A stretch of 64,000 bases of DNA from Nanobdellota archaeon (GTDB taxonomy: Archaea > Nanobdellota > Nanobdellia > Pacearchaeales > GW2011-AR1), in contig JAKLDD010000002.1 of assembly GCA_022703705.1 (NCBI GenBank), forward strand, positions 4,597 to 68,596. The letters are read 5' to 3'. This document shows positions 11,359 to 21,029 of this stretch, piece after piece (positions within the stretch are counted from its first letter, which is position 1; each line of letters opens with the position of its first letter). Under the pieces are notes generated by a model that searched no databases, had not been told where the DNA came from, and saw nothing but the letters and a program-made list of their open reading frames with translations. The position numbers and the translations under genes were made by a program.

Positions 11359-11727
11359 ATGAAATCAAAAACAAAAATTTCAAAACAATTGGAACGAAAA
11401 GGAAATTCAGAATTAACTAATAGTATACTTGCTGCAAAAAAAAATAATTCTTGGGTGGAGGTAGCAGGATTGCTTTCTAGACCAAGAAGAAAAAGAATAA
11501 ACTTCAACTTGGATGAAATAAATCAAAAATGCAATGAAGGAGAGAGTATAATCATCCCCGGAAAAGTTCTTTCTCAAGGAAAAATAGAAAAAAAAATAAA
11601 AATAATTGCATTTAATTTCTCCGAAAAAGCAAAAGAAAAATTATTAAGTTCAAAATGCCAAATTACATACATCTCAGATGAAATTAAATCAAACCCTTCT
11701 GCAAAAGGATTGAAAATATTAAAATGA
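11359..11727 (+). CDS. rpl18e: 50S ribosomal protein L18e
   Basis: LLSRPRRKRINFNLDEIN..IIIPGKVLSQG; starts the conserved L18e-L13-S9 order. Confidence 0.88.
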   Translation: MKSKTKISKQLERKGNSELTNSILAAKKNNSWVEVAGLLSRPRRKRINFNLDEINQKCNEGESIIIPGKVLSQGKIEKKIKIIAFNFSEKAKEKLLSSKCQITYISDEIKSNPSAKGLKILK

Positions 11728-12113
11728 TAATCGATGGAAAAAACACTGTTCTTGGAAGATTAGCTAGCTATGCAGCTAAAGAAGCTCTTAAAGGAGAAGA
11801 GATAATTATTGTAAATTGCAATCACGTTATAATTAGCGGGAATAGAAAAAATATTATCAATGAGTTTCAACAAAAAAGAAAGAGGGTCGGTTTTTCACAA
11901 AAAGGCCCAAAATATTCTAAGGACAACGAAAAAATAGTTAAAAAAACAATACGAGGAATGCTTCCAGACCATCGAGAAGGTAGAGGAAGAATTGCTTTTA
12001 AAAAAATAAAATGTTATCAAGAAACTCCAGAAAAGTATTTAGATTCAAAAAAAGTTTCTTTAAATACAGGGGATAAAAATAAATTTATTGAAGTTCAGGA
12101 AGTTTTCAAATGA
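11724..12113 (+). CDS. rpl13: 50S ribosomal protein L13 (uL13)
   Basis: IIDGKNTVLGRLASYAAKEALKGEEIIIVNCNHVIISG..; ATGA overlap with L18e. Confidence 0.9.
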   Translation: MIIDGKNTVLGRLASYAAKEALKGEEIIIVNCNHVIISGNRKNIINEFQQKRKRVGFSQKGPKYSKDNEKIVKKTIRGMLPDHREGRGRIAFKKIKCYQETPEKYLDSKKVSLNTGDKNKFIEVQEVFK

Positions 12114-12511
12114 ATAAAATTGTTACATCTGGAAAAAGAAAAACTGCAATTGCGCGAGCAATTTTAACAGAAGGGGATGGAAAAATAAGTATAAATCATA
12201 GAAATTATGAGCATCTTCACGAATTTGATATTTTAAGAATGAAAGAACCTTTGAAAATAGCCGAAAATGTCCTTGGAAAAATGAATTTTAATGTGGATAT
12301 TCTTGTTCATGGGGGCGGTGAAAAAAGCCAGATAGAAGCTGCAAGACTTGCTTTAGCAAGAGCAATTGTAAAATTTACAAATTCAGAAAAACTAGAAAAA
12401 GAATATTTAGATTATGATAGGAACCTTCTTGTTGCGGACGTTAGAAGAAAAGAACCAAATAAGCCCGGAGATTCAAAAGCACGTGCTAAGCGTCAAACTT
12501 CTTTCAGATAA
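12110..12511 (+). CDS. rps9: 30S ribosomal protein S9 (uS9)
   Basis: GKRKTAIARA.., GGGEKSQIEAARLALARA.., C-terminus KARAKRQTSFR; ATGA overlap with L13. Confidence 0.92.
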   Translation: MNKIVTSGKRKTAIARAILTEGDGKISINHRNYEHLHEFDILRMKEPLKIAENVLGKMNFNVDILVHGGGEKSQIEAARLALARAIVKFTNSEKLEKEYLDYDRNLLVADVRRKEPNKPGDSKARAKRQTSFR

Positions 12512-12853: not shown

Positions 12854-13279
12854 TTAAAAATTATTTTTCTTTTCTAGTTTATCTAATTTATCTTGAACAT
12901 GATTAAAAAGAGTTGTTGAAATAATTGGGGGGTGTTTTCCTTCAGAAATTTGCCCATCAAACCTAACTTTACCAACATAAACAAAATTTCTTAAAATTTT
13001 TTTTAATCCATTAACTGAAAAATTATGCTTTTCTGCAATTTTAGACAAGTTCATTTCTGGATTCAAAAACTCTTCAAAAATTTCTTCTACTTCTCTGTAG
13101 TTTTGCGCTAAAATCAATGTTTTTTCTTTAAAATCCCATTCATATCCGAAAGGGGATCTCGACATATGTTTTCCTTCAGAAAATTTTTTTAGCATTCCCT
13201 TTTTTTGAGATTTTCCTCGATCTTCCAATTCAGGTTTTAATTCTATTTCAAATTCGTGTCCACATTTAGGGCATTTCAT
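12854..13279 (-). CDS. Zn-ribbon plus serine-recombinase 'Recombinase' (DNA-binding) domain protein, lacking the catalytic resolvase domain
   Basis: N-terminal CPKCGHEF. SPFGYEW..LILAQNYREVEEIFEEFLNPEMNLSKIAEKHNFSVNGLKKILRNFVYVGKV matches the PFGY..EA..V..IF..SL..IA..LN...I..IL.N..Y.G pattern of PF07508. ATGA overlap with the xerA stop. Confidence 0.65.
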   Translation of the reverse strand: MKCPKCGHEFEIELKPELEDRGKSQKKGMLKKFSEGKHMSRSPFGYEWDFKEKTLILAQNYREVEEIFEEFLNPEMNLSKIAEKHNFSVNGLKKILRNFVYVGKVRFDGQISEGKHPPIISTTLFNHVQDKLDKLEKKNNF

Positions 13280-14109
13280 TTCATTAATTCATCTATAGGG
13301 GATTTTATCTTCTTTAATTCTTCTGTTGATATATGAGTATAAATTTGTGTTGTTGAAAGATCTGCATGCCCAAGCAATTCTTGTATTTTTCTTATATCCG
13401 TCCCGTTTTCTAAAAGATGGGTGGCAAAACTATGCCTCAAAGTATGGCAATGAATTTCCTTGTTTATTCCTGCTCTTTTTGCTGCTTTTGAAACAATTTT
13501 TTGCAAATTTCTCTCTGAAAGTTTTCCTTTTATTCCAGTAAATAAATATATTTCTTTTTTTTCTTTCTGCTTTTCTACTTGTTTTTTTAAATCTTCTAAT
13601 AAAAAATCTGGAATGTTAAAAATTCTATCTTTTTTTCCTTTTCCTTGAAGAATTTTTCCTGTTTTTTCATTAAAGTCCAAGTCCCCAATTTTTAAATTGA
13701 TTAATTCGGATACCCTAAACCCACAGGCATACATTAAAGAAACCATAATTTTTGATTTTTTCGTGTCCAATACTTCAAATAATTTTTTTGCTTCTTCTTT
13801 TGTTAAAACCGTGGGCAATCTCTTTTCTCTTTTTGGACGTTTAATTCCCAGGGTAATGTCTTTTTTTAATATACCTAAAAAAGAATATTTTAAAGCTGAA
13901 AGAAAAATAATTATGGATGAGGAAGCTTTATCAGAAAGATTCTCTGAAATATATAATTTTACATCATCTGATTCTATTTTCTCTGGATTTTTTTTTATAA
14001 ATTCAAGAAATTTTTTATTTGAATCCAAATAATTTCTCAGTGTATATAATGAATTTTTTGAAATTTTCAGTTCAACCTCTAATTTTTTTAAAAAATCTTC
14101 TGGAGTCAT
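13276..14109 (-). CDS. xerA: tyrosine recombinase XerA/XerC/XerD family
   Basis: 277 aa. ACGFRVSEL (Arg I), HTLRHSFATHLL (H-x-x-R), LGHADLSTTQIYTH (catalytic Tyr), N-terminal SAM-like core-binding domain. Confidence 0.9.
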   Translation of the reverse strand: MTPEDFLKKLEVELKISKNSLYTLRNYLDSNKKFLEFIKKNPEKIESDDVKLYISENLSDKASSSIIIFLSALKYSFLGILKKDITLGIKRPKREKRLPTVLTKEEAKKLFEVLDTKKSKIMVSLMYACGFRVSELINLKIGDLDFNEKTGKILQGKGKKDRIFNIPDFLLEDLKKQVEKQKEKKEIYLFTGIKGKLSERNLQKIVSKAAKRAGINKEIHCHTLRHSFATHLLENGTDIRKIQELLGHADLSTTQIYTHISTEELKKIKSPIDELMK

Positions 14110-14124
14110 TTTTATCTTAAAAGA

Positions 14125-14135
14125 ATTGTACGAAC
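14125..14135 (-). promoter_or_regulatory. Xer half-site (GTTCGTACAAT) between the xerA TATA-like box and start codon
   Basis: The 11-mer is identical to 17685-17695 and nearly identical to both arms of the dif-like site. A TATA-like tatttaaa (minus strand, 14139-14146) lies upstream, and the ATG is at 14109. Confidence 0.55.
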
Positions 14136-14156
14136 TTCTTTAAATAGTTTTAGACT

Positions 14157-14303
14157 CTATTTTTTAAGGAGTTCTTTTTGATTAATCAAAACCAAAATAA
14201 CTGCTCCAATTAAAAAAAGCCAATTAACTAAGATAGCTAAAACAATAAACCCTATTGCAAGTAAAGAAAACCAAAATACTTTGGGATATTTTAGAAATTT
14301 CAT
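14157..14303 (-). CDS. small membrane protein (48 aa), below the ORF-track cutoff
   Basis: Hand translation: MKFLKYPKVFWFSLLAIGFIVLAILVNWLFLIGAVILVLINQKELLKK*. Confidence 0.35.
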   Translation of the reverse strand: MKFLKYPKVFWFSLLAIGFIVLAILVNWLFLIGAVILVLINQKELLKK

Positions 14304-14383
14304 AGGGAGGAGAGTTCATAGAGATATTTAAACTATCTTCTTGGAACAATAATTTTTAAAAAATAGAAAAAATTGGGATTAAA

Positions 14384-14911
14384 ATGAGAGACTCAAATAA
14401 AAAAATTCTTGTAATTGCTTTAGCTTTACTCTTTATAGCAATTGTTTTAATTTTACTCATTTCAAGTTTAGTCAAACAAAAAGAGAAAGAGGAGAGAGTT
14501 GGGGTGCCAACATCTTTTGCTGTTTCAGAAAATCAAGATTATTCTAGCCACATTCAAGGAAAGAATTATTACTATTATGATTATAATCATCGGCATGAGA
14601 TAAATTATTATAACCTTGATCAACAAAAAACTGAAAAAAGAACTGATTTTTCTTATTATGGGAGAAAAGAACAACAAAAAGACATTTTTGGGAGTTATAT
14701 TACTAAGTATGTTGTTTCTGTCCAAAACAAGGAAAATGTTGGAGATTATTTTACAGTTACATTTAATTTTAAAAATCAAAGGGGATTTGAATATTCTGAA
14801 GCAGTAACTCAGTATTTAAAAGCAGGAGAGAAAAAAGAATTTGTTTATAAAGATGTTCAATTTGAAAGGACAGAAATCTTAAGCTGGAGCTATAGAGTTA
14901 AACAGGTATAA
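14384..14911 (+). CDS. N-terminally anchored extracellular protein (175 aa)
   Basis: Signal-anchor ILVIALALLFIAIVLILLISSL, a Tyr/Asn-rich segment, and a beta-rich C-terminus. Confidence 0.6.
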   Translation: MRDSNKKILVIALALLFIAIVLILLISSLVKQKEKEERVGVPTSFAVSENQDYSSHIQGKNYYYYDYNHRHEINYYNLDQQKTEKRTDFSYYGRKEQQKDIFGSYITKYVVSVQNKENVGDYFTVTFNFKNQRGFEYSEAVTQYLKAGEKKEFVYKDVQFERTEILSWSYRVKQV

Positions 14912-14927
14912 ATAAGCTATTTTTAGT

Positions 14928-14955
14928 GGTTCGTATAATGTATATTGTACGAAGC
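14928..14955. other. dif: dif-like Xer recombination site GGTTCGTATAA-TGTATA-TTGTACGAAGC
   Basis: 11-6-11 architecture with near-palindromic arms. It shares 20/28 identity with E. coli dif (GGTGCGCATAATGTATATTATGTTAAAT, from memory), including the identical TGTATA spacer and 17 of the first 19 nt. Located 0.8 kb from xerA. Confidence 0.75.
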
Positions 14956-14965
14956 TTTACCTATT

Positions 14966-15460
14966 TTAGAAGGATTTTGGAGGTTTTGATAGTATTTCCT
15001 TAGTAATCTTAACAATTTGTTTTAATATTTTCGGATTTGTGGCCTTTTTTAAAAACTGTTCATCTTCTGTTGAAAATTGTCTTGCACTTAGGTTAGCTTT
15101 GTTATTTTTTGTTTGATATTCTTTGAAAGCCGGTGAATCTTTATGAACTAAAAGATACTCAAAAACATCCCCGAGGTTTTTCTGGTAGTCTTTAAACTGT
15201 TCTTCACTAATAAGAGCATATTCATGAAATTCATTTAAAGAGAGATTTCCATGTCTTTTTAAAAGAGGGAACCATACAGAAAGTTTCCCATCTTCTACAT
15301 AGTGAATTCCTAATGAATTTTCTTCAGGAATCTGAAATAATAAATGTGGGGCCATCATGTTTTGAAAATACTTTCCCTTGAAATTTTCAATTAATAAATC
15401 ATAAAGAGTGTGCTCATACGGGATTAGTTTTGGTTCTAAACCTTTTTTCATTTTATTCAT
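14966..15460 (-). CDS. hypothetical protein (164 aa)
   Basis: ORF with no recognised motif. Repeat R1 lies ~100 nt upstream. Confidence 0.55.
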   Translation of the reverse strand: MNKMKKGLEPKLIPYEHTLYDLLIENFKGKYFQNMMAPHLLFQIPEENSLGIHYVEDGKLSVWFPLLKRHGNLSLNEFHEYALISEEQFKDYQKNLGDVFEYLLVHKDSPAFKEYQTKNNKANLSARQFSTEDEQFLKKATNPKILKQIVKITKEILSKPPKSF

Positions 15461-15559
15461 AAGAAAAGATTCCTTTTAACTATTTATATTAAGCAAGATA
15501 TATTTTTTAAAATTTTTACTCTTACACTTTTTACACCTGCAAAAATCTTTTAACTAAGT

Positions 15560-15594
15560 TTCACCTGCCTTTTTGCACTTAGGTTAGGTAAGTT
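15560..15594. repeat. repeat R1 copy a (ttcacctgcc-ttttgcacttaggttaggtaagtt)
   Basis: The 24-nt core is identical to 16074-16097. It lies ~100 nt upstream of the start of gene 14966..15460. Confidence 0.8.
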
Positions 15595-15638
15595 CACTTA
15601 ATTAAATTTATTAAAATAATTTTAAAATTATTTAAAAC

Positions 15639-15959
15639 TTAATAAAAAGGACATCTAATCCCATTTAATTTATGAAGATGCTCTTCTGGAGTATTAACAA
15701 ATCCCCTTTTAAAAAAAGGGGCATAAGGTAGTCCTCTGCTGGAAGTATTTTCAAGGGTGAGGGTTGAACCAAAATAGTACCATTTCTTTTCCAAATCTTT
15801 CTTACTCTTTCCGAATCTTCTAAATTTAATATGATATAGTTCATCAAATTCATTACCTAGTTCTCCGGATGGATTATATATGGCAAGCTCATTTGCATTA
15901 AATAATGGCTTAGGTTTTGATCTATTTTTGGGCATTAAAATTTTAGTAAGCTTAATCAT
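15639..15959 (-). CDS. hypothetical protein (106 aa)
   Basis: ORF with no recognised motif. Repeat R1 lies ~105 nt upstream. Confidence 0.5.
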   Translation of the reverse strand: MIKLTKILMPKNRSKPKPLFNANELAIYNPSGELGNEFDELYHIKFRRFGKSKKDLEKKWYYFGSTLTLENTSSRGLPYAPFFKRGFVNTPEEHLHKLNGIRCPFY

Positions 15960-16063
15960 TCTTCTTAAAGCAATTAATTATTTTTAAAAATTTGGATTAA
16001 GAAGGGTATATGAAGTTTATTTTTTACAACAAATTTTTCAGTAAAATTTTCTTGCTATTTATT

Positions 16064-16097
16064 TTCACCAGCATTTTGCACTTAGGTTAGGTAAGTT
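16064..16097. repeat. repeat R1 copy b
   Basis: ttcaccagca-ttttgcacttaggttaggtaagtt, at the same offset from the start of gene 15639..15959. Confidence 0.8.
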
Positions 16098-16122
16098 ATT
16101 TGTAATTAGTTTAATTTTAATG

Positions 16123-16150
16123 CGTTGGATGTGTTGGATGTGTTGGAATG
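16123..16150. repeat. repeat R2: three tandem 9-mers (gttggatgt gttggatgt gttggaatg)
   Basis: The 20-mer tgtgttggatgtgttggaat (16130-16149) recurs exactly at 17800-17819, inside a CDS. Confidence 0.8.
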
Positions 16151-16179
16151 CCAGTTAAAAATGTATAATTTACCTGTTT

Positions 16180-16311
16180 AAACAGCTGTTTGTTATATTT
16201 TATCGACGGAATAATAAAAATTAAAAAAACAAAAATTAATTAAAATTTAAGGTGTTTAAATGGCTGTTTAAATTTTAAACAGCTGTTTGCCACTGTTTAA
16301 ACAGGCTGTTT
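16180..16311. repeat. iteron cluster: 12-bp palindrome AAACAGCTGTTT (2 perfect + 2 degenerate copies)
   Basis: Perfect copies at 16180-16191 and 16277-16288. Variants aaatggctgttt at 16258-16269 and aaacaggctgttt at 16299-16311. Confidence 0.8.
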
Positions 16312-16470
16312 GTAGTTATTTTTTTACTATAAACATGGTTTTTTAACAATTTTTTAGCTTATTTTTTATTTATTTTTGTACCCTTTTTTTGTTTTTAAAT
16401 CAAAGAAAAATTTCGTTTTTCCCGATGAAAAAAACAAAACATTTTTAAACCGGTTTTTCTAATAGATATT

Positions 16471-17103
16471 ATGTTTAGATGGTTTTCTAAAAAAAAGGAT
16501 AAAAAAGAGCTTGAAGATATAAAAGAAGAAACAAAAAAAGGTTTTGATTTTGTAAAAAAAGATATTGCAACAGTAAGTGGATGGATTAAACACCTAGATT
16601 CTGAAAAAAAAATACAAGAAAAAGATATATTATCCATTAAAGAAGATTTGACGACGGTTAAAGAAGAATTAGAAGGATTAAAAAATGTTTTATCTATTAT
16701 GAATGATCTTAAACCCAAACAGCTGTTTAAAACAAACAAACAGCTGTTTAATAAACAAACAGCTGTTTATGCTGTCCAAACAGGTGTCCAAACAGGTGTC
16801 CAAACACCAAATTTAGGACAATTTTCTGTAACAGAAAGAGCGATTCTATGGGTGTTATTAAACACAGATATGAAACTAGGTTATGATGATCTTTCTACTA
16901 TGCTAGGAAAAGAAAAGAGCACAATAAGAGGTCAAATAAACTCCATAAAAGCAAAAAGTGAGGGTATAATAGAGGAAATTATTGAGACAAATGGCAAAAA
17001 AAGAGTGTTTATACCTGAAGAAATTAAAGAAAAACTACTAAAAAAGTCAAAAGTAAGGGTTGGACAGTCAAAAAACACCAAAAAAGTCAAAAGTGAGGAT
17101 TAG
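16471..17103 (+). CDS. coiled-coil / low-complexity linker / C-terminal wHTH DNA-binding protein (210 aa)
   Basis: N-terminal KKGFDFVKKDI..coiled coil, linker KQLFKTNKQLFNKQTAVYAVQTGVQTGVQT, and wHTH SVTERAILWVLLNTDMKLGYDDLSTMLGKEKSTIRGQINSIK. Paralog of 17328..18032. Confidence 0.65.
   Translation: MFRWFSKKKDKKELEDIKEETKKGFDFVKKDIATVSGWIKHLDSEKKIQEKDILSIKEDLTTVKEELEGLKNVLSIMNDLKPKQLFKTNKQLFNKQTAVYAVQTGVQTGVQTPNLGQFSVTERAILWVLLNTDMKLGYDDLSTMLGKEKSTIRGQINSIKAKSEGIIEEIIETNGKKRVFIPEEIKEKLLKKSKVRVGQSKNTKKVKSED
16717..16806. repeat. three more perfect AAACAGCTGTTT palindromes plus AAACAGGTGTCC x2, inside the CDS
   Basis: Perfect copies at 16717-16728, 16738-16749 and 16757-16768; ccaaacaggtgt x2 at 16776-16800. 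Confidence 0.8.
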
Positions 17104-17166
17104 TAACCCTTAAAATATTAAAAAAATAAGAAAAAATTAGATAAAAAAGTCAAAAGTGAGAGTTAA
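17041..17166. repeat. three copies of aaaaagtcaaaagt[ag]ag[ga]g spanning the CDS 3' end and downstream
   Basis: Copies start at 17041, 17081 and 17144. The second contains the stop codon, and the third repeats the C-terminal coding module after the stop. Confidence 0.7.
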
Positions 17167-17210
17167 TAGATTCAAAAAATAAGAAAATAAAAAGAAAAAA
17201 TCGGGGGGAA

Positions 17211-17246
17211 AGAAAAAAGGGAGATAAAAGAAAAAAGGGAGATAAA
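17211..17246. repeat. 18-bp tandem duplication (gaaaaaagggagataaaa x2) in a ~220-bp almost pure-purine tract
   Basis: Read directly. The tract 17104-17327 is A/G on the plus strand and T/C on the minus strand. Confidence 0.75.
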
Positions 17247-17327
17247 AGAAAAAAATAAAGAGAAAAAAACACATAAGAAACCCAAAAGGGAGGGAAAAAA
17301 GTTATTCGGTAAGCAAGATAACTATAA

Positions 17328-18032
17328 TTAAAGCTCCCTTAACTGTAAAATTGTGCTTAAAGAAGCAATTTTCTTAAAGTTTGATGAAATAATCAATTGA
17401 ATATTTTTATTATTGATTTTAATTTTCTCGACGGGAATTCCTTTTTTAATTAACCTTCCAACATAATCCCTAATAGAGCTTTCAGTTAATTTTAGCTTTT
17501 GAGATAAATTCCTATAATCTGCATATCCTTCTTCTTCACAAGATTGATACAGTGCAGAAAAAACAGTCATTTCTTGATCTGTAAGTCGTTTAAATTTTAA
17601 ACGTATCTCTTTTTTTAGATTATCGAGAGAATCTAAAATTTTTACAGCATCTATTATGGGGCTTTCTTTTTCTTTATTATTGGTATTGTACGAACCTTTA
17701 TCTGTCTGTTGGTTTGTCTGTTGGTTTGTCTGTTTGTCTGTTGGAACCCCTACATTTCCAGTGGAAATACCTAAATTTTCATCCCTAAGGAGCCCAAAAT
17801 GTGTTGGATGTGTTGGAATTTGTGGTGAGGATGTTGAATTTTCTGATTTATGTGTTGGATCTTCTTTAAAATTTTCTTCTTTCTGCTTTATTGAAATTTT
17901 CTTTATTAATTCACATAATTCAATTAAACTTTGCCTATTTTCTTTTAATCCTTCTTTTAAAGAATCAACCTCTTTTCTCAAAATATCCATATCTTGTTTT
18001 ACCTTTGAAAATGCCTCTTTTATTTGTTCCAT
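17328..18032 (-). CDS. coiled-coil / low-complexity linker / C-terminal wHTH DNA-binding protein (234 aa), paralog of 16471..17103
   Basis: IKEAFSKVKQDMDILRKEVDSLKEGLKEN aligns with KKGFDFVKKDI..VKEELEGLKN. wHTH LTDQEMTVFSALYQSCEEEGYADYRNLSQKLKLTESSIRDYVGRLIKKG. The linker carries PTHPTH and TDKQTNQQTNQQTD repeats. Confidence 0.65.
   Translation of the reverse strand: MEQIKEAFSKVKQDMDILRKEVDSLKEGLKENRQSLIELCELIKKISIKQKEENFKEDPTHKSENSTSSPQIPTHPTHFGLLRDENLGISTGNVGVPTDKQTNQQTNQQTDKGSYNTNNKEKESPIIDAVKILDSLDNLKKEIRLKFKRLTDQEMTVFSALYQSCEEEGYADYRNLSQKLKLTESSIRDYVGRLIKKGIPVEKIKINNKNIQLIISSNFKKIASLSTILQLREL
17685..17695 (-). other. isolated Xer half-site GTTCGTACAAT inside the CDS linker
   Basis: 11-mer identical to 14125-14135, in the same orientation as the right arm of the dif-like site. 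The flanking would-be left arm is degenerate (5/11). Confidence 0.5.
17704..17744. repeat. tandem gtctgttggttt repeats (minus strand AAACCAACAGAC), related to the AAACAG half-iteron
   Basis: Two 12-mers plus two shorter units, encoding the QTNQQTNQQTD linker. Confidence 0.7.
17800..17819. repeat. repeat R2 second locus (exact 20-mer)
   Basis: tgtgttggatgtgttggaat is identical to 16130-16149 and encodes PTHPTH on the minus strand. Confidence 0.8.
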
Positions 18033-18096
18033 CTTTTTTTAAATAATATCTCCTATAAAAAGATTGAGATATTTTAAAATAATATTTGAGAAATAT

Positions 18097-18372
18097 TCAG
18101 TTTAAGCTTTGCCTGTTTTTGTACACCTTATAAACTTCATCTGAAAGCCTCCATCGACTTCTTTTAAGGTAGTCTACTCCCTTGGAATTCTTTTTTATTT
18201 CAACAACCAACTTTTCCTTTTTTAGTATTAATAATAAATTTTTTATAAATTCTTCATCTCGAGCGATTTCTTTTGCAATATTTGATGTAAAAACCGATTT
18301 TGGGTTAACAGAATAGAGGTAAGCAAGAATTTGTTCAGAGATTTTCTCTTTTTTTTCTTTTGAAATAAACAT
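18097..18372 (-). CDS. small winged-helix DNA-binding protein (91 aa)
   Basis: ISEQILAYLYSVNPKSVFTSNIAKEIARDEEFIKNLLLILKKEKLVVE has a wHTH pattern. Confidence 0.6.
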   Translation of the reverse strand: MFISKEKKEKISEQILAYLYSVNPKSVFTSNIAKEIARDEEFIKNLLLILKKEKLVVEIKKNSKGVDYLKRSRWRLSDEVYKVYKNRQSLN

Positions 18373-18502
18373 AATTAGATTAAGAAGAAAGTTCTTTTAA
18401 AGTTAATTATCTATTATGTTTTAAAATTACTTCTTAAATTCTAAAAATTATTTGTTTAGTTTTAAAAAAATGTAATTTAAAAAAGCTTCTTTAGGTACTT
18501 CT

Positions 18503-18916
18503 TTAATTTTTTTCTTGAGATTTTATAGAAGGAAGGGGGATATGCAATGGAAGATTAAATTCTTCTTCAAAAGGAATTGCTTTTAGACTTGCCTTTTTTA
18601 AGATTATGTTGAAAATATTTAATTTAAATTCTTCCGGCATTTTTTTATCTTGCCATTGTCTTAAAACTTCTTTAGCTTCTTTAGATTCTACTGAAACAAG
18701 CATATTTCCAGTAAAGTCTAATTTAGCTATTTTTTCCTCATAAGAAATATTGTAATTGAATTTAACTGCAATTAAATCTCCATTTAACTTTAAAAAATCA
18801 GATTTTACTGTTTTTATATCAGAAATATCTACTCCTGTATTAATTTTTAAGTCTTTTAGATTATCTGAAAGCTTTTCTACATTTATTTTTGTAAAATTGA
18901 AACTAACTAACTTCAT
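18503..18916 (-). CDS. hypothetical protein (137 aa)
   Basis: Clean ORF with no confident motif. Confidence 0.55.
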   Translation of the reverse strand: MKLVSFNFTKINVEKLSDNLKDLKINTGVDISDIKTVKSDFLKLNGDLIAVKFNYNISYEEKIAKLDFTGNMLVSVESKEAKEVLRQWQDKKMPEEFKLNIFNIILKKASLKAIPFEEEFNLPLHIPLPSIKSQEKN

Positions 18917-18969
18917 ATTATGATATTAAATTTTATATTTTTAAATATTTAGGTTAAAAAATAATACTT

Positions 18970-19230
18970 TTAAATTAAATCTTCTTCAGAAACAATAACA
19001 AAATCACCTATAGCAATAATTGAACTATACGGTACCAAAAATTCTCCAGAAGAGGTTTTTTCAAGATTTAAATTTCTAGAATAAGGTGTGGGATCTTTTA
19101 AAACAACTCCAATTAACTCTCCGGATTTTGTTTCAAAAGTAATATCTTTAACATAACCTAATCTTTTTCCTTCTTTTGTTACTACCATTTTTCCAATAAT
19201 AACATTAAAGGGAGTCTTTTCTATTTGCAT
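18970..19230 (-). CDS. PRC-barrel domain protein (86 aa)
   Basis: Start at the internal Met MQIEKTPFNVIIGKMVVTKEGKRLGYVKDITFETKSGELIGVVL..IIAIGDFVIVSEEDL. The track N-terminal extension runs into the origin AT tract. Confidence 0.65.
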   Translation of the reverse strand: MQIEKTPFNVIIGKMVVTKEGKRLGYVKDITFETKSGELIGVVLKDPTPYSRNLNLEKTSSGEFLVPYSSIIAIGDFVIVSEEDLI

Positions 19231-19316
19231 ATTGAAAATAAAAGTAATCAATTTATAAACTTTTCTGTAAAAATATATAGAGATTTGAATGTATAAAACA
19301 ATCAAAATTTAAATCC

Positions 19317-19341
19317 CACACCCTTTTGTTTCTTATGGAAA
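19317..19341 (-). promoter_or_regulatory. ORB-like box 1 (inverted): TTCCATAAGAAACAAAAGGGTGTG
   Basis: Dyad TTCCAnnnGAAAC plus a G/T-rich tail, comparable to archaeal ORB/mini-ORB elements (TTCCAGTGGAAAC type). Confidence 0.6.
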
Positions 19342-19394
19342 TATTTATAAATCAAAATGAAAAATTTTATTTTATTTATTTATTTATAAAAATT

Positions 19395-19426
19395 TATATT
19401 ATATATTATATATTATATATTATATT
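19395..19426. repeat. (TATATTA)n heptamer repeat, ~4.5 copies
   Basis: tt doublets recur every 7 nt at 19399, 19406, 19413 and 19420. Confidence 0.8.
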
Positions 19427-19437
19427 TTACTATTTTT

Positions 19438-19461
19438 AATAATAATAATAATAATAATAAT
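19438..19461. repeat. (AAT)8 microsatellite
   Basis: Read directly from the sequence. Confidence 0.9.
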
Positions 19462-19667
19462 AAAAGAATTAAAAGAATCAAAAACACTATAAAAGTAATA
19501 TAACAATAACATAACAAGAAGACATAATTAATAACATTCTATCAAAAACATAAAAATTATAATAATTATAATAAAAGAAATAATTAAAATTTTGGTAATA
19601 AATTAAAAATAACAGCTAAAATCTCAAAAACTTAAAAATAGCACTTAAAATTCAAAAAAACTAATCA

Positions 19668-19690
19668 TTCCATTAGAAACGTAGGTGTTT
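19668..19690 (+). promoter_or_regulatory. ORB-like box 2: TTCCATTAGAAACGTAGGTGTTT
   Basis: Same dyad and G/T tail, in the opposite orientation to box 1 across the AT-rich region. Confidence 0.6.
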
Positions 19691-19764
19691 CTCTTAATTA
19701 GTGGTTATAATTCTTTATATAAGAAATACATTTTTTTCATCGATAATTTAATTAATTTTAAATT

Positions 19765-19788
19765 TTCCACAGGAAATAAACGTGTGAG
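19765..19788 (+). promoter_or_regulatory. ORB-like box 3: TTCCACAGGAAATAAACGTGTGAG
   Basis: Same dyad, 30 nt upstream of the cdc6 ATG. GAGGT SD-like element at 19806-19810. Confidence 0.55.
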
Positions 19789-19817
19789 ATAATGAAATTA
19801 AAACGCGAGGTTAAAAG

Positions 19818-21029
19818 ATGAAAATAGATATTGAAAAAATTTTTGATACTTTTGATAAAAATGGAATTTTTAAAAACAAATCTTTATTACAATCAAATTA
19901 TACTCCAAATGAAATTCCCCATAGAGAAGAAGAAATAAAGCAGATTGCTTCTATCTTGGCTCCAGTATTGAGGGGAGAAAAAACAAGTAATTTATTTCTT
20001 TACGGGAAAACAGGAACAGGAAAAACCCTTTCTGTCCAATTTGTTCAAGAAGAATTAAATAAGCGAGTAAAAAAAGATTCAAATTTTAAATTAAAAATAG
20101 AATATTTAAATTGTAAATTAAAAAAGGTGTCTGATACAGAATATAGAATTTTAGCAGAATTAATTAAAAAAATGGGGGGGGAAGTTCCTCAAACAGGGCT
20201 TCCAACTCAAGCAGTATATAACAAATTTATAGAAACAATTGATTCTGAAAGGCAAGTAATAGTACTTATTTTAGATGAAATTGATCAAACAGTAAGGAAA
20301 ATTTCAAGCGATTTTTTGTATAATTTAATAAGATTAAATTCAGAACTTTCAAAATCCAAGCTTTGTATAGTTGGAATTAGCAATAATTTAACCTTTTTAG
20401 ATGAAATAGACCCCCGAGTAAGAAGTTCCCTTTCAGAAGAGGAAATTGTTTTTCACCCGTATGATGCTCTTCAATTGCAGGATATCTTAAATAAAAGGGC
20501 AAGAATGGCATTTAAAGAGGGAGTTATTCAGGAAGGGGTTGTTTCTAAATGTGCCGCATTTGCTGCAAGAGAGCACGGAGATGCAAGAAGAGCCCTAGAT
20601 TTACTTAGAATAGCTGGAGAGTTAGCAGAAAGAGACAATTCAGGTAAAATTTTAATAAAACATATAGATGAAGCAAATAATAAAATAGAAAAAGATAAGA
20701 TTTTAGATGTAATTCAATCAGAACCCAAACAATTTCAGTTAGTTTTAAAGGCAATTATTTATTTATCTGAAACTCAAAAAAACGAACCCATTTTTACAGG
20801 AGATGTTTATAATGTATATCAGGATTTTTGTTTAAGGCATAAACTAGAAGTATTAACCCAAAGGAGAGTGGGGGATATAATTCAAGAGTTTGATATGCAT
20901 GGAATAATTAATATAAAAGTTATTTCTAAGGGCCGGGGAGGGAGAATGAGAGAAATTAAATTAGCAATTCCAAAAGAGATTACAAAAAAAGCAAATGAAA
21001 TTGTTGAACACTCCTTAAATTATTTATAA
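19818..21029 (+). CDS. cdc6: Orc1/Cdc6 replication initiator
   Basis: IPHREEEIKQI.., Walker A YGKTGTGKT, Walker B LILDEID, sensor GISNN, GDARRALDLLR, and a C-terminal winged helix. Confidence 0.93.
   Translation: MKIDIEKIFDTFDKNGIFKNKSLLQSNYTPNEIPHREEEIKQIASILAPVLRGEKTSNLFLYGKTGTGKTLSVQFVQEELNKRVKKDSNFKLKIEYLNCKLKKVSDTEYRILAELIKKMGGEVPQTGLPTQAVYNKFIETIDSERQVIVLILDEIDQTVRKISSDFLYNLIRLNSELSKSKLCIVGISNNLTFLDEIDPRVRSSLSEEEIVFHPYDALQLQDILNKRARMAFKEGVIQEGVVSKCAAFAAREHGDARRALDLLRIAGELAERDNSGKILIKHIDEANNKIEKDKILDVIQSEPKQFQLVLKAIIYLSETQKNEPIFTGDVYNVYQDFCLRHKLEVLTQRRVGDIIQEFDMHGIINIKVISKGRGGRMREIKLAIPKEITKKANEIVEHSLNYL

What the first reader, a model, noticed from the sequence alone, without database searches (positions are those of the whole stretch)
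14109..17695. Isolated Xer half-sites: one inside the xerA promoter, one inside a regulator gene
The 11-mer GTTCGTACAAT (minus strand) occurs at 14125-14135 and 17685-17695. It is nearly identical to both dif arms (GTTCGTATAAT and CTTCGTACAAT). Four occurrences of this GC-containing 10-11-mer in 64 kb of AT-rich DNA are very unlikely by chance. My rough expectation for a given 11-mer is well below 1; this is a back-of-envelope estimate, not a computed value.

- The first copy lies between the xerA TATA-like box (14139-14146) and the ATG (14109), which suggests autorepression by XerA.
- The second copy has a degenerate partner arm (5/11) and sits in the linker of the wHTH gene 17328..18032. It has the same orientation as the dif right arm, 2.7 kb from dif.

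The segment in between (14956-17684) holds the orphan genes and the iteron array. One speculative reading is an old Xer-exploiting integrative element (IMEX-like) whose distal site has decayed.
Basis: partly seen in the sequence, partly recalled or inferred. Interest (0 to 1): 0.6.

Follow-up and report, generated by a model that had tools for sequence, protein, structure and literature searches.

The report
Conserved lone XerA-arm sites, not IMEX scars
Two single copies of the arm sequence of the chromosome-dimer resolution site dif are real and conserved in this tiny DPANN archaeon, one placed to let the XerA recombinase shut off its own promoter and one locked at a fixed distance from a replication-origin box inside a gene; they are not scars of an old mobile element.

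Summary
GTTCGTACAAT lies at 14125-14135 and 17685-17695 (minus strand). With the two dif arms it gives 4 matches in 3.6 kb, against 0.29 expected in the window and 5 in the whole 623-kb genome.

Both sites are conserved in relatives.
- **Site 1** sits 3 nt after the xerA TATA box, between TATA and the predicted transcription start. The layout TATA-N2-5-GTTCG(C/T)A(C/T)AAT recurs in 21 of 24 genomes of the genus and in at least 39 of 74 Pacearchaeota/Woesearchaeota loci. In three lineages a full dif lies just upstream of the same TATA. This looks like an operator for XerA autorepression. Binding itself is not shown.
- **Site 2** lies in the coding linker of an origin-associated wHTH gene. It begins 54-55 nt after the G-string of an Orc1/Cdc6 box (ORB) in all 16 orthologues examined in the genus. 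Synonymous codons in this block never vary (9/9 against 2/40 elsewhere, p=3e-8), so selection acts on the DNA. Its function is unknown; a XerA docking site at the origin is my best guess.

The IMEX reading fails. The order dif, wHTH pair, cdc6 is syntenic across the genus, and the host gene exists in another genus without the half-site.

The parts
13276..14109 (-). xerA, the only tyrosine recombinase found in this genome
   Evidence: NCBIfam recomb_XerA_Arch 241.9 bits, cut-off 220. Pfam Phage_integrase 1.4e-47. One match in G000.
12854..13279 (-). Zn-ribbon plus 'Recombinase' (PF07508) domain protein; its start overlaps the xerA stop
   Evidence: Pfam PF07508 3e-9. The gene is adjacent to xerA in all genus loci. 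It is absent just downstream of xerA in 27 of 69 wider loci.
14125..14135 (-). Isolated XerA-arm site 1, the proposed operator of the xerA promoter
   Evidence: Exact 11-mer. It lies 3 nt downstream of the TATA box. It is conserved in 21 of 24 genus genomes and in at least 39 of 74 family or order loci.
14139..14146 (-). xerA TATA box (TATTTAAA on the gene strand)
   Evidence: Sequence. Genome-wide, TATA hexamers peak at -29..-27 from the ATG. Here the hexamer starts at -35, which predicts a transcription start about 6 nt before the ATG.
14928..14955 (.). dif, GGTTCGTATAA-TGTATA-TTGTACGAAGC (11-6-11)
   Evidence: A convincing dif-like site (conserved central NRTATA), one per genome, in about 13 of 24 genus genomes. 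It always lies beside tm175 and the origin block.
15080..16097 (+). Three TTGCACTTAGGTTAG boxes (15080-15103, 15571-15594, 16074-16097) between small variable ORFs
   Evidence: The boxes occur only here in the genome. Similar arrays exist in other genera, and lie within about 2 kb of ORB1 in at least five of them.
17328..18032 (-). wHTH234: coiled-coil, linker and winged-HTH gene that hosts site 2 and ORB1
   Evidence: Weak HTH_24, HTH_36 and DnaD_N hits. Orthologues in 16 genus loci and one other genus.
17685..17695 (-). Isolated XerA-arm site 2 (codons GGT TCG TAC AAT = G S Y N)
   Evidence: Exact 11-mer. The codon TCG is invariant in 16 of 16 orthologues. The purine before it starts 54 nt, and the 11-mer itself 55 nt, after the start of GGGGTTCC in 16 of 16. 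It is absent from 29 other-genus loci that carry the same ORB block.
17696..17742 (-). CAGACA/CAAACC repeat tract between ORB1 and site 2
   Evidence: No insertions or deletions in 16 genus genomes.
17743..17768 (-). ORB1: ATTTCCACTGGAAAT-GTA-GGGGTTCC, inside the coding linker
   Evidence: The pattern GGAAANNNNGGGGTTCCAACAGAC matches 126 of 201 genomes of the order, once in all but two of them; the reversed control matches none.
19666..19788 (+). ORB2 (19666-19691) and ORB3 (19762-19788) upstream of cdc6, after an AT-rich stretch
19818..21029 (+). orc1/cdc6
   Evidence: ORF. 75-80% identical orthologues sit in the same position.

Best explanation
Both isolated 11-mers are conserved, non-recombining single-arm binding sites for the chromosomal recombinase XerA.

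**Site 1** lies directly downstream of the xerA TATA box. It covers about -19 to -9 relative to the predicted transcription start of a leaderless-type promoter. XerA bound there would let TBP/TFB bind but block RNA polymerase recruitment or promoter opening, which gives negative autoregulation. The ancestral layout, still seen in three lineages, is dif, TATA, single arm, ATG. In this genus dif has moved 0.8 kb or about 50 kb away, and the single arm has stayed with the promoter.

**Site 2** arose in the ancestor of this genus. It sits in the coding linker of an origin-associated wHTH gene, 54-55 nt (about five helical turns) from the G-string of ORB1. Selection on the DNA itself keeps it there. 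The most likely role is to dock one XerA protomer on the origin nucleoprotein complex, 2.7 kb from dif.

**Shown:** the motifs, their positions, their conservation, the codon-level constraint and the synteny.

**Inferred:** XerA binding, repression and any origin-linked role.
For: **Motif statistics**
- 4 matches against 0.29 expected in the window.
- 4 of 5 genome-wide matches lie in this 3.6 kb.

**Site 1**
- TATA-N3-GTTCGTAYAAT is conserved upstream of xerA, or of a HAD-xerA operon, in the genus.
- It is found in at least 39 of 74 Pacearchaeota/Woesearchaeota loci and in other families.
- The information profile peaks on the TATA box and on the 11-mer only.
- L142, L158 and L174 carry a full dif, then 20-21 nt, then TATA (hexamer at -29), then the single arm at -18..-8, then the ATG.
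- TATA hexamers in this genome peak at -29..-27 from the ATG, which is the geometry of leaderless mRNAs.
- In the distant clade whose dif arm is GTTCGCTTAAT, the promoter arm is GTTCGTTTTAA. This is partial co-variation.

**Site 2**
- Fixed spacing to the ORB1 G-string (54-55 nt) in 16 of 16 orthologues.
- 9 of 9 four- or six-fold degenerate codons in the block are invariant, against 2 of 40 elsewhere in the gene; Fisher p=2.7e-8.
- The conserved footprint equals the 11-bp arm.

**Literature**
- P. abyssi XerA binds and cleaves isolated half-sites (PMC3646895).
- Haloarchaeal dif-like sites lie upstream of the xerA operon, and T. acidophilum dif1 binds XerA without recombining (PMC11840125).
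Against: - No binding or expression data exist for this uncultured organism.
- The motif varies little, so co-variation with dif arms is weak inside the genus.
- Some genomes lack site 1 (for example L033; about a third of the wider loci by my pattern).
- Site 2 is confined to one genus and I have no tested function for it.
- Another DNA-binding protein could read the same sequence. Candidates are the Zn-ribbon/Recombinase-domain protein encoded with xerA and the two wHTH proteins.
- Tyrosine recombinases usually bind single arms more weakly than full sites.
Confidence: 0.55

Rival explanations
1. The 11-mer is read by a protein other than XerA, such as the Zn-ribbon/Recombinase-domain protein encoded with xerA or one of the origin-associated wHTH proteins. 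That protein would also contact the dif arms as an accessory factor. The sites would then form a small regulon of that factor.
For: - The Zn-ribbon/PF07508 gene overlaps the xerA stop and is conserved in the genus.
- Large serine recombinases use this domain to read att half-sites (established knowledge).
- Several other locus-specific DNA motifs sit in this origin region and need readers.
Against: - The sequence equals the consensus strong arm of dif, which is the known XerA target type.
- Site 1 is present in at least 12 loci where the Zn-ribbon/Recombinase-domain gene is not downstream of xerA.
- XerA is the simplest common denominator of the promoter, dif and site 2.
Confidence: 0.2
2. One reading: 14956-17684 is an old Xer-exploiting integrative element (IMEX-like). 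Its proximal junction would be dif and its distal junction would have decayed to a half-site.
For: - The half-site has the same orientation as the right dif arm, and 29 nt around it are 79% identical to dif plus its flank (D17).
- The 1.1-2.1 kb next to dif varies in gene content between species.
Against: - The segment is syntenic in all genus loci examined.
- The half-site lies inside one continuous conserved gene, whose orthologue in another genus has the same layout without the site.
- The site is under purifying selection with fixed spacing to ORB1.
- Assembled contigs from four independent metagenomes show no junction between dif and a half-site.
- The variable part is bounded by its own repeat family, which lies near ORB1 in several genera.
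Confidence: 0.03
3. The matches are by-products of chance, of base composition, of a conserved peptide (G/S-S-Y-N), or of a general promoter element.
For: - The genome is AT-rich.
- The degenerate pattern GTTCGYAYAAY is no more frequent genome-wide than its reversed control (60 against 62 in 24 genomes).
Against: - About 45 of those 60 matches fall at the three orthologous places.
- TCG, GGG and TCC codons are invariant in the block while the same amino acids use 3-4 codons elsewhere.
- The 9-mer occurs nowhere else in G000, so it is not a general promoter element.
Confidence: 0.03
4. Site 2 is a functionless copy of the right dif arm and its flank, made by a short conversion or duplication event and not yet eroded.
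For: The site exists in one genus only. It shares flank similarity with dif.
Against: The 16 species have saturated synonymous sites elsewhere in the same gene, yet none has a change at the constrained positions or an insertion or deletion in the 84-nt block.
Confidence: 0.07

Closest known systems
Autoregulation of a site-specific recombinase through its own site at its promoter (Tn3/gamma-delta resolvase at res; established knowledge)
   Same: A recombinase target sequence overlaps the promoter of the recombinase gene, so the enzyme can repress its own synthesis. In three lineages a full dif plus an extra arm bracket the TATA box.
   Different: Here the enzyme is a tyrosine recombinase of the Xer type in an archaeon. 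The operator is a single arm between TATA and the transcription start. In this genus the recombination site itself has moved away. Nothing has been shown biochemically.
Haloarchaeal dif-like element upstream of the xerA operon; T. acidophilum dif1, which binds XerA but does not recombine (PMC11840125)
   Same: An archaeal XerA target lies next to the xerA promoter, and XerA-binding sites without recombination activity exist.
   Different: Those are full 28-bp sites. No lone arm inside the core promoter has been described, and no origin-linked arm.
XDS, dif-like XerD-binding sites that unload SMC at the bacterial terminus (Karaboja et al. 2021, as cited in PMC11840125; details from memory)
   Same: Isolated Xer-type binding sites are used for a non-recombination purpose.
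   Different: The sites here are at the origin, not the terminus. No SMC hinge domain was found in this 87.5% complete genome.
IMEX elements such as CTXphi, which integrate at dif using the host Xer (established knowledge)
   Same: dif-like sequences lie near variable DNA.
   Different: The segment is syntenic and the distal site is selected, not decayed. No archaeal IMEX is mentioned in the review of archaeal tyrosine recombinases (PMC8371274).
ORB cluster inside the dp1 coding region of Pyrococcus, bound by Cdc6/Orc1 in vivo (PMC1904270)
   Same: Origin recognition boxes are written inside a protein-coding gene next to cdc6.
   Different: Here the box is followed by phased CAGACA repeats and, in one genus, a Xer arm at fixed distance.

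Membership tests
Functional Xer recombination site (full dif) | Two inverted 11-bp arms separated by a 6-8 bp spacer | tested here: not met
   For sites 1 and 2 the partner arm matches 5-6 of 11 and is not conserved in relatives. The true dif at 14928-14955 meets the feature.
IMEX (integrative element exploiting Xer) | The element is present in some related genomes and absent from others, leaving an empty dif | tested here: not met
   The segment is syntenic in all genus loci. The host gene is intact in an outgroup genus.
IMEX (integrative element exploiting Xer) | The element is flanked by two dif-like junction sites | tested here: not met
   The distal site is a lone arm inside a conserved gene. 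It is under selection and phased to ORB1.
IMEX (integrative element exploiting Xer) | Excision or empty-site junctions are detectable in sequence data | tested here: inconclusive
   Contigs of 4 metagenomes show no such joint. Contigs drop rare variants, and raw reads were not available.
Recombinase autoregulation via own site | A recombinase target sequence overlaps the core promoter of the recombinase gene | tested here: met
   The arm lies 3 nt after the TATA box and before the predicted transcription start.
Recombinase autoregulation via own site | The recombinase binds the site and represses transcription | not testable with these tools
   This needs EMSA or footprinting and in vitro transcription.
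XDS-like Xer half-sites (SMC unloading) | An SMC-ScpAB complex is present in the organism | tested here: not met
   PF06470 (SMC hinge): no match in G000, which is 87.5% complete; the control genomes matched.
XDS-like Xer half-sites (SMC unloading) | The sites lie in the replication terminus | tested here: not met
   Site 2 starts 55 nt after the ORB1 G-string and lies 2.1 kb from cdc6.
Archaeal XerA (NF040815) | The protein scores above the curated cut-off of the equivalog model | tested here: met
   241.9 bits against a cut-off of 220.
Archaeal oriC with ORB elements | A TTCC...GGAA dyad with a G-string, several copies, an AT-rich stretch, next to orc1/cdc6 | tested here: met
   ORB1 at 17743-17768(-), ORB2 and ORB3 at 19666-19788(+), GC 0.22 at 18-20 kb, cdc6 at 19818. 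Core motifs as described in PMC1904270.

The most novel reading that the evidence does not exclude
In this genus XerA may be a structural part of the origin complex. One protomer would be held on site 2, five helical turns from Orc1/Cdc6 on ORB1. Together with the protomer on the xerA operator and the two on dif, the four arms within 3.6 kb could assemble a XerA tetramer in cis. Such a complex would keep dif locked, keep xerA repressed, and release both when the origin fires. That would couple replication initiation to chromosome-dimer resolution in an archaeon that has no FtsK and, so far as found, no SMC.
Probability: 0.12. Interest if true: 0.85.

Novelty: new variant of a known kind. Interest (0 to 1): 0.55.

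Why it matters
How archaeal XerA is controlled is an open question. It recombines dif in vitro without an FtsK-like partner (PMC8371274).

A lone dif arm is conserved in the core promoter of xerA across an entire DPANN order, and in some lineages a full dif sits on the other side of the TATA box. This gives a simple, testable control circuit: the enzyme limits its own level.

The second arm is phase-locked to an origin box and kept by selection inside a coding sequence. Together with dif sitting only a few kb from oriC, it points to a physical link between initiation and dimer resolution in very small archaeal genomes. It is also a clean example of DNA signals constraining codon choice.

Tried and rejected
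- **Junction search.** I looked for deletion or inversion junctions between dif and the half-sites in public data. Only assembled contigs were available. They show the locus intact in four metagenomes and no relevant joints.
- **Known RNAs.** An Rfam scan of 13800-20000 found nothing credible.
- **Bacterial-type promoter and terminator scan.** It was uninformative for an archaeon.
- **Internal promoter upstream of site 2.** The upstream sequence (GATAAAG) does not match the TATA consensus or spacing, and there is no in-frame start downstream. Rejected.
- **Integron-like or Xer-linked cassette system for the variable ORFs next to dif.** Their repeat (CACTTAGGTTAG) is unrelated to the Xer arm. 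It also lies near ORB1 in other genera, so I treat it as a feature of the origin region.
- **Extra TTRTACGAAG upstream of tm175 in three class-B genomes.** It lies in the C-terminal coding part of a 1101-aa ORF and is present in only 3 of 7 such loci. I did not pursue it.
- **Co-variation of the promoter arm with the genome's own dif arms inside the genus.** The motif varies too little to be informative.
- **Literature on XerA autoregulation.** The search found nothing relevant.


Full report
**1. Observation**

The 11-mer GTTCGTACAAT is present exactly where reported, at 14125-14135 and 17685-17695 on the minus strand. The two arms of the 28-bp dif (14928-14955, GGTTCGTATAA-TGTATA-TTGTACGAAGC) each differ from it by one base.
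- The window has 4 matches at up to one mismatch against 0.29 expected. No shuffle out of 100 reached 4.
- The whole assembly is 622,739 bp in 40 contigs, 29.5% GC. It has 5 such matches, four of them in this 3.6 kb.
- The 9-mer TTCGTACAA occurs three times in the genome, all here.
- The TATA-like box at 14139-14146 and the xerA ATG at 14107-14109 are as described.
- The recombinase is a bona fide XerA (NCBIfam equivalog 241.9 bits, cut-off 220). It is the only tyrosine recombinase found in this genome.
- The organism is a DPANN archaeon of the Pacearchaeota/Woesearchaeota group, judged from the record titles of close relatives.

**2. Synteny**

I fetched the xerA and dif neighbourhoods from species of the same genus and from others in the order.

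In every genus locus that reaches far enough, the order is tm175, dif, a 1.1-2.1 kb variable stretch, wHTH210 (+), wHTH234 (-), orf91, orf137 (not found in one locus), orf111, an AT-rich stretch with two ORBs, then cdc6.
- In seven genomes, including this one, xerA lies directly beside tm175.
- In at least four others xerA lies about 50 kb away on the same contig. The edges of that intervening DNA carry giant ORFs that have no counterpart in this genome.

In another genus (G037), wHTH210 and wHTH234 are arranged the same way, but wHTH234 has no half-site. The two sides of site 2 are therefore parts of one old gene and not a junction.

**3. Site 1, in the xerA promoter**

On the gene strand the window reads TATTTAAA-GAA-GTTCGTACAAT-N15-ATG.
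- The same layout, TATA, 2-5 nt, then GTTCG(C/T)A(C/T)AAT, is found upstream of xerA in most genus members. The exact degenerate 11-mer sits at the xerA promoter in 21 of 24 genus genomes (one search compared).
- A strict pattern finds it in 39 of 74 usable loci from diverse Pacearchaeota/Woesearchaeota. About eight more are visible by eye.
- In some 15 of these loci a HAD-like gene lies between this promoter and xerA, and the arm stays with the TATA box, 630-720 nt from xerA.
- The distance from the arm to the ATG varies from 5 to 39 nt, while the distance to the TATA box does not. The element is therefore tied to transcription.
- An information profile over aligned promoters peaks on the TATA box and on the 11-mer, then falls to background.
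- In G000, TATA-type hexamers upstream of 302 well-defined starts pile up at -29 to -27. This is the signature of leaderless mRNAs.

In L142, L158 and L174 (= G036) the xerA promoter has its TATA hexamer exactly at -29 and the single arm at -18 to -8. In addition, a full dif lies 20-21 nt upstream of the TATA box.

It is established for several archaeal repressors that a protein bound between TATA and the start site blocks polymerase recruitment.

Other families of the order have one dif arm reading GTTCGCTTAAT. There the promoter arm reads GTTCGTTTTAA or GTTCGTTTTAG. This is partial co-variation.

P. abyssi XerA binds and cleaves isolated half-sites in vitro (PMC3646895). Haloarchaea have a dif-like site upstream of the xerA operon (PMC11840125).

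I conclude that site 1 is most likely a XerA operator. Binding and repression are inferred, not shown.

**4. Site 2, in the wHTH234 linker**

The linker of this protein varies strongly in length and sequence, except for one block that translates as ISTGNxGVPTD(K/R)QT...(G/S)SYN.

At the DNA level the block has three parts:
- a canonical origin recognition box, ATTTCCACTGGAAAT-GTA-GGGGTTCC (17743-17768, minus strand);
- then CAGACA/CAAACC repeats;
- then the Xer arm.

The purine before the arm begins 54 nt after the first G of GGGGTTCC, so the 11-mer itself begins at 55 nt, in all 16 genus orthologues. There is no insertion or deletion in the 84 nt.

All nine conserved four- or six-fold degenerate codons inside the block use a single codon in every species: TCC, GGA, GGG, GTT, CCA, ACA three times, and TCG. 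Only 2 of 40 such columns elsewhere in the gene do so (Fisher p=2.7e-8). Selection therefore acts on the DNA and not only on the peptide.

The conserved footprint at site 2 is (A/G)GTTCG(T/C)A(C/T)AA(C/T), which is exactly one arm.

The ORB plus GGGGTTCCAACAGAC part matches 126 of 201 genomes of the order, once in all but two of them; the reversed control matches none. None of the 29 other-genus loci I could read carries a Xer arm after the repeats. Site 2 is therefore an innovation of this genus that has been kept since.

ORBs inside a coding region have a precedent in the Pyrococcus dp1 gene (PMC1904270).

What site 2 does is unknown. Its fixed phase with ORB1 suggests a joint nucleoprotein complex.

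**5. What it is not**

- **Not a full Xer site.** The partner arms are degenerate and not conserved.
- **Not an IMEX scar.** See section 2; also, contigs from four independent metagenomes carry the locus intact without relevant joints, although contigs cannot exclude rare events.
- **Not an XDS-like SMC unloading site.** No SMC hinge domain is detectable in this 87.5% complete genome, and the site lies at the origin.
- **Not a known RNA**.

**6. The variable stretch next to dif**

Between dif and wHTH210 each species has two or three small minus-strand ORFs, drawn from at least seven families. They are separated by 2-5 direct copies of TTGCACTTAGGTTAG(C/G)T(T/A)(T/A)GTT.
- The repeat lies at or just after the 3' end of each ORF, and once more upstream of the first ORF.
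- It is found nowhere else in this genome.
- Exact matches occur in 16 of 80 other genera sampled from the family. Where the ORB1 position is known (at least five of them), they lie within about 2 kb of it.

The repeat is unrelated to the Xer arm. I regard it as another feature of the origin region.

**7. Verdict**

- The autorepression idea is well supported by position and phylogenetic footprint, but it is untested biochemically.
- The IMEX idea is rejected.
- The arm phased to ORB1 is new and unexplained.

I found no paper describing XerA autoregulation or lone XerA arms.

The earlier notes of this scan that I read after my own analysis agree on three points: the origin, the ORB inside the gene, and the xerA-coupled Recombinase-domain gene.

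Noticed in passing
window 17743-17768 (-), inside gene 17328..18032: A canonical ORB is written in the coding linker (peptide ISTGNxGVP). The 24-nt pattern GGAAANNNNGGGGTTCCAACAGAC matches 126 of 201 genomes of the order, once in all but two; the reversed control matches none.
   Followed up: yes
window 15080-15103, 15571-15594, 16074-16097 (+): Direct repeats TTGCACTTAGGTTAG... mark the 3' end of each small variable ORF between dif and wHTH210. There are 2-5 copies per species, at least 7 ORF families are shuffled between species, and the repeat is found only at this locus. The geometry is cassette-like, the mechanism unknown.
   Followed up: partly
window 16120-16310, 16716-16790 and 17799-17819: AAACAGCTGTTT palindromes (5 copies, only here in the genome) and ATGTGTTGGATGTGTTGGAAT occur both in the intergenic region upstream of wHTH210 and inside the linker-coding parts of wHTH210 and wHTH234.
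   Followed up: partly
window 12854-13279 (-): A 141-aa Zn-ribbon plus PF07508 'Recombinase' domain protein with no catalytic domain overlaps the xerA stop. It is conserved in the genus but is not directly downstream of xerA in 27 of 69 wider loci.
   Followed up: partly
L026, L032, L037, L039, L041 and about 15 of L117-L196: A HAD-hydrolase-like gene of about 220 aa sits between the arm-bearing promoter and xerA in many relatives, forming an operon. It is absent in this genome.
   Followed up: no
G019, G016, G009, G017 (L031/L063, L030/L064 and others): In these species about 50 kb separates xerA from tm175 and dif. The edges of that DNA encode giant proteins (3027 aa, 1101 aa) that are absent from this genome. 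Three of the seven loci with xerA not beside dif have a TTRTACGAAG in the C-terminal coding part of the 1101-aa ORF.
   Followed up: partly
L045 (G037) 11511-12317: In another genus a second Xer-like recombinase (42% identical to XerA) lies directly beside the wHTH210/wHTH234 pair, at the place that dif and the cassettes occupy here. Similar paralogues exist in several genus genomes on other contigs.
   Followed up: no
window 14928-19817 and G039, G030, G037: dif lies only 2-5 kb from ORB1 and cdc6 throughout the genus. xerA and ORB1 lie within about 12 kb of each other in several other families, with dif located between them in G039. dif is therefore close to the origin and not at a terminus.
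   Followed up: partly
whole genome G000: No SMC hinge domain (PF06470) was detected in the 87.5% complete assembly.
   Followed up: no
window 17675-17841 in run X4: Summed contig depth jumps to 212, against 15-40 nearby. Contigs of many related species match the conserved ORB, repeat and arm block at 90% identity or more.
   Followed up: no
whole genome G000, upstream of 302 ORF starts: There is a sharp peak of TATA-type hexamers starting at -29 to -27 from the ATG. This suggests that a large share of mRNAs are leaderless.
   Followed up: yes
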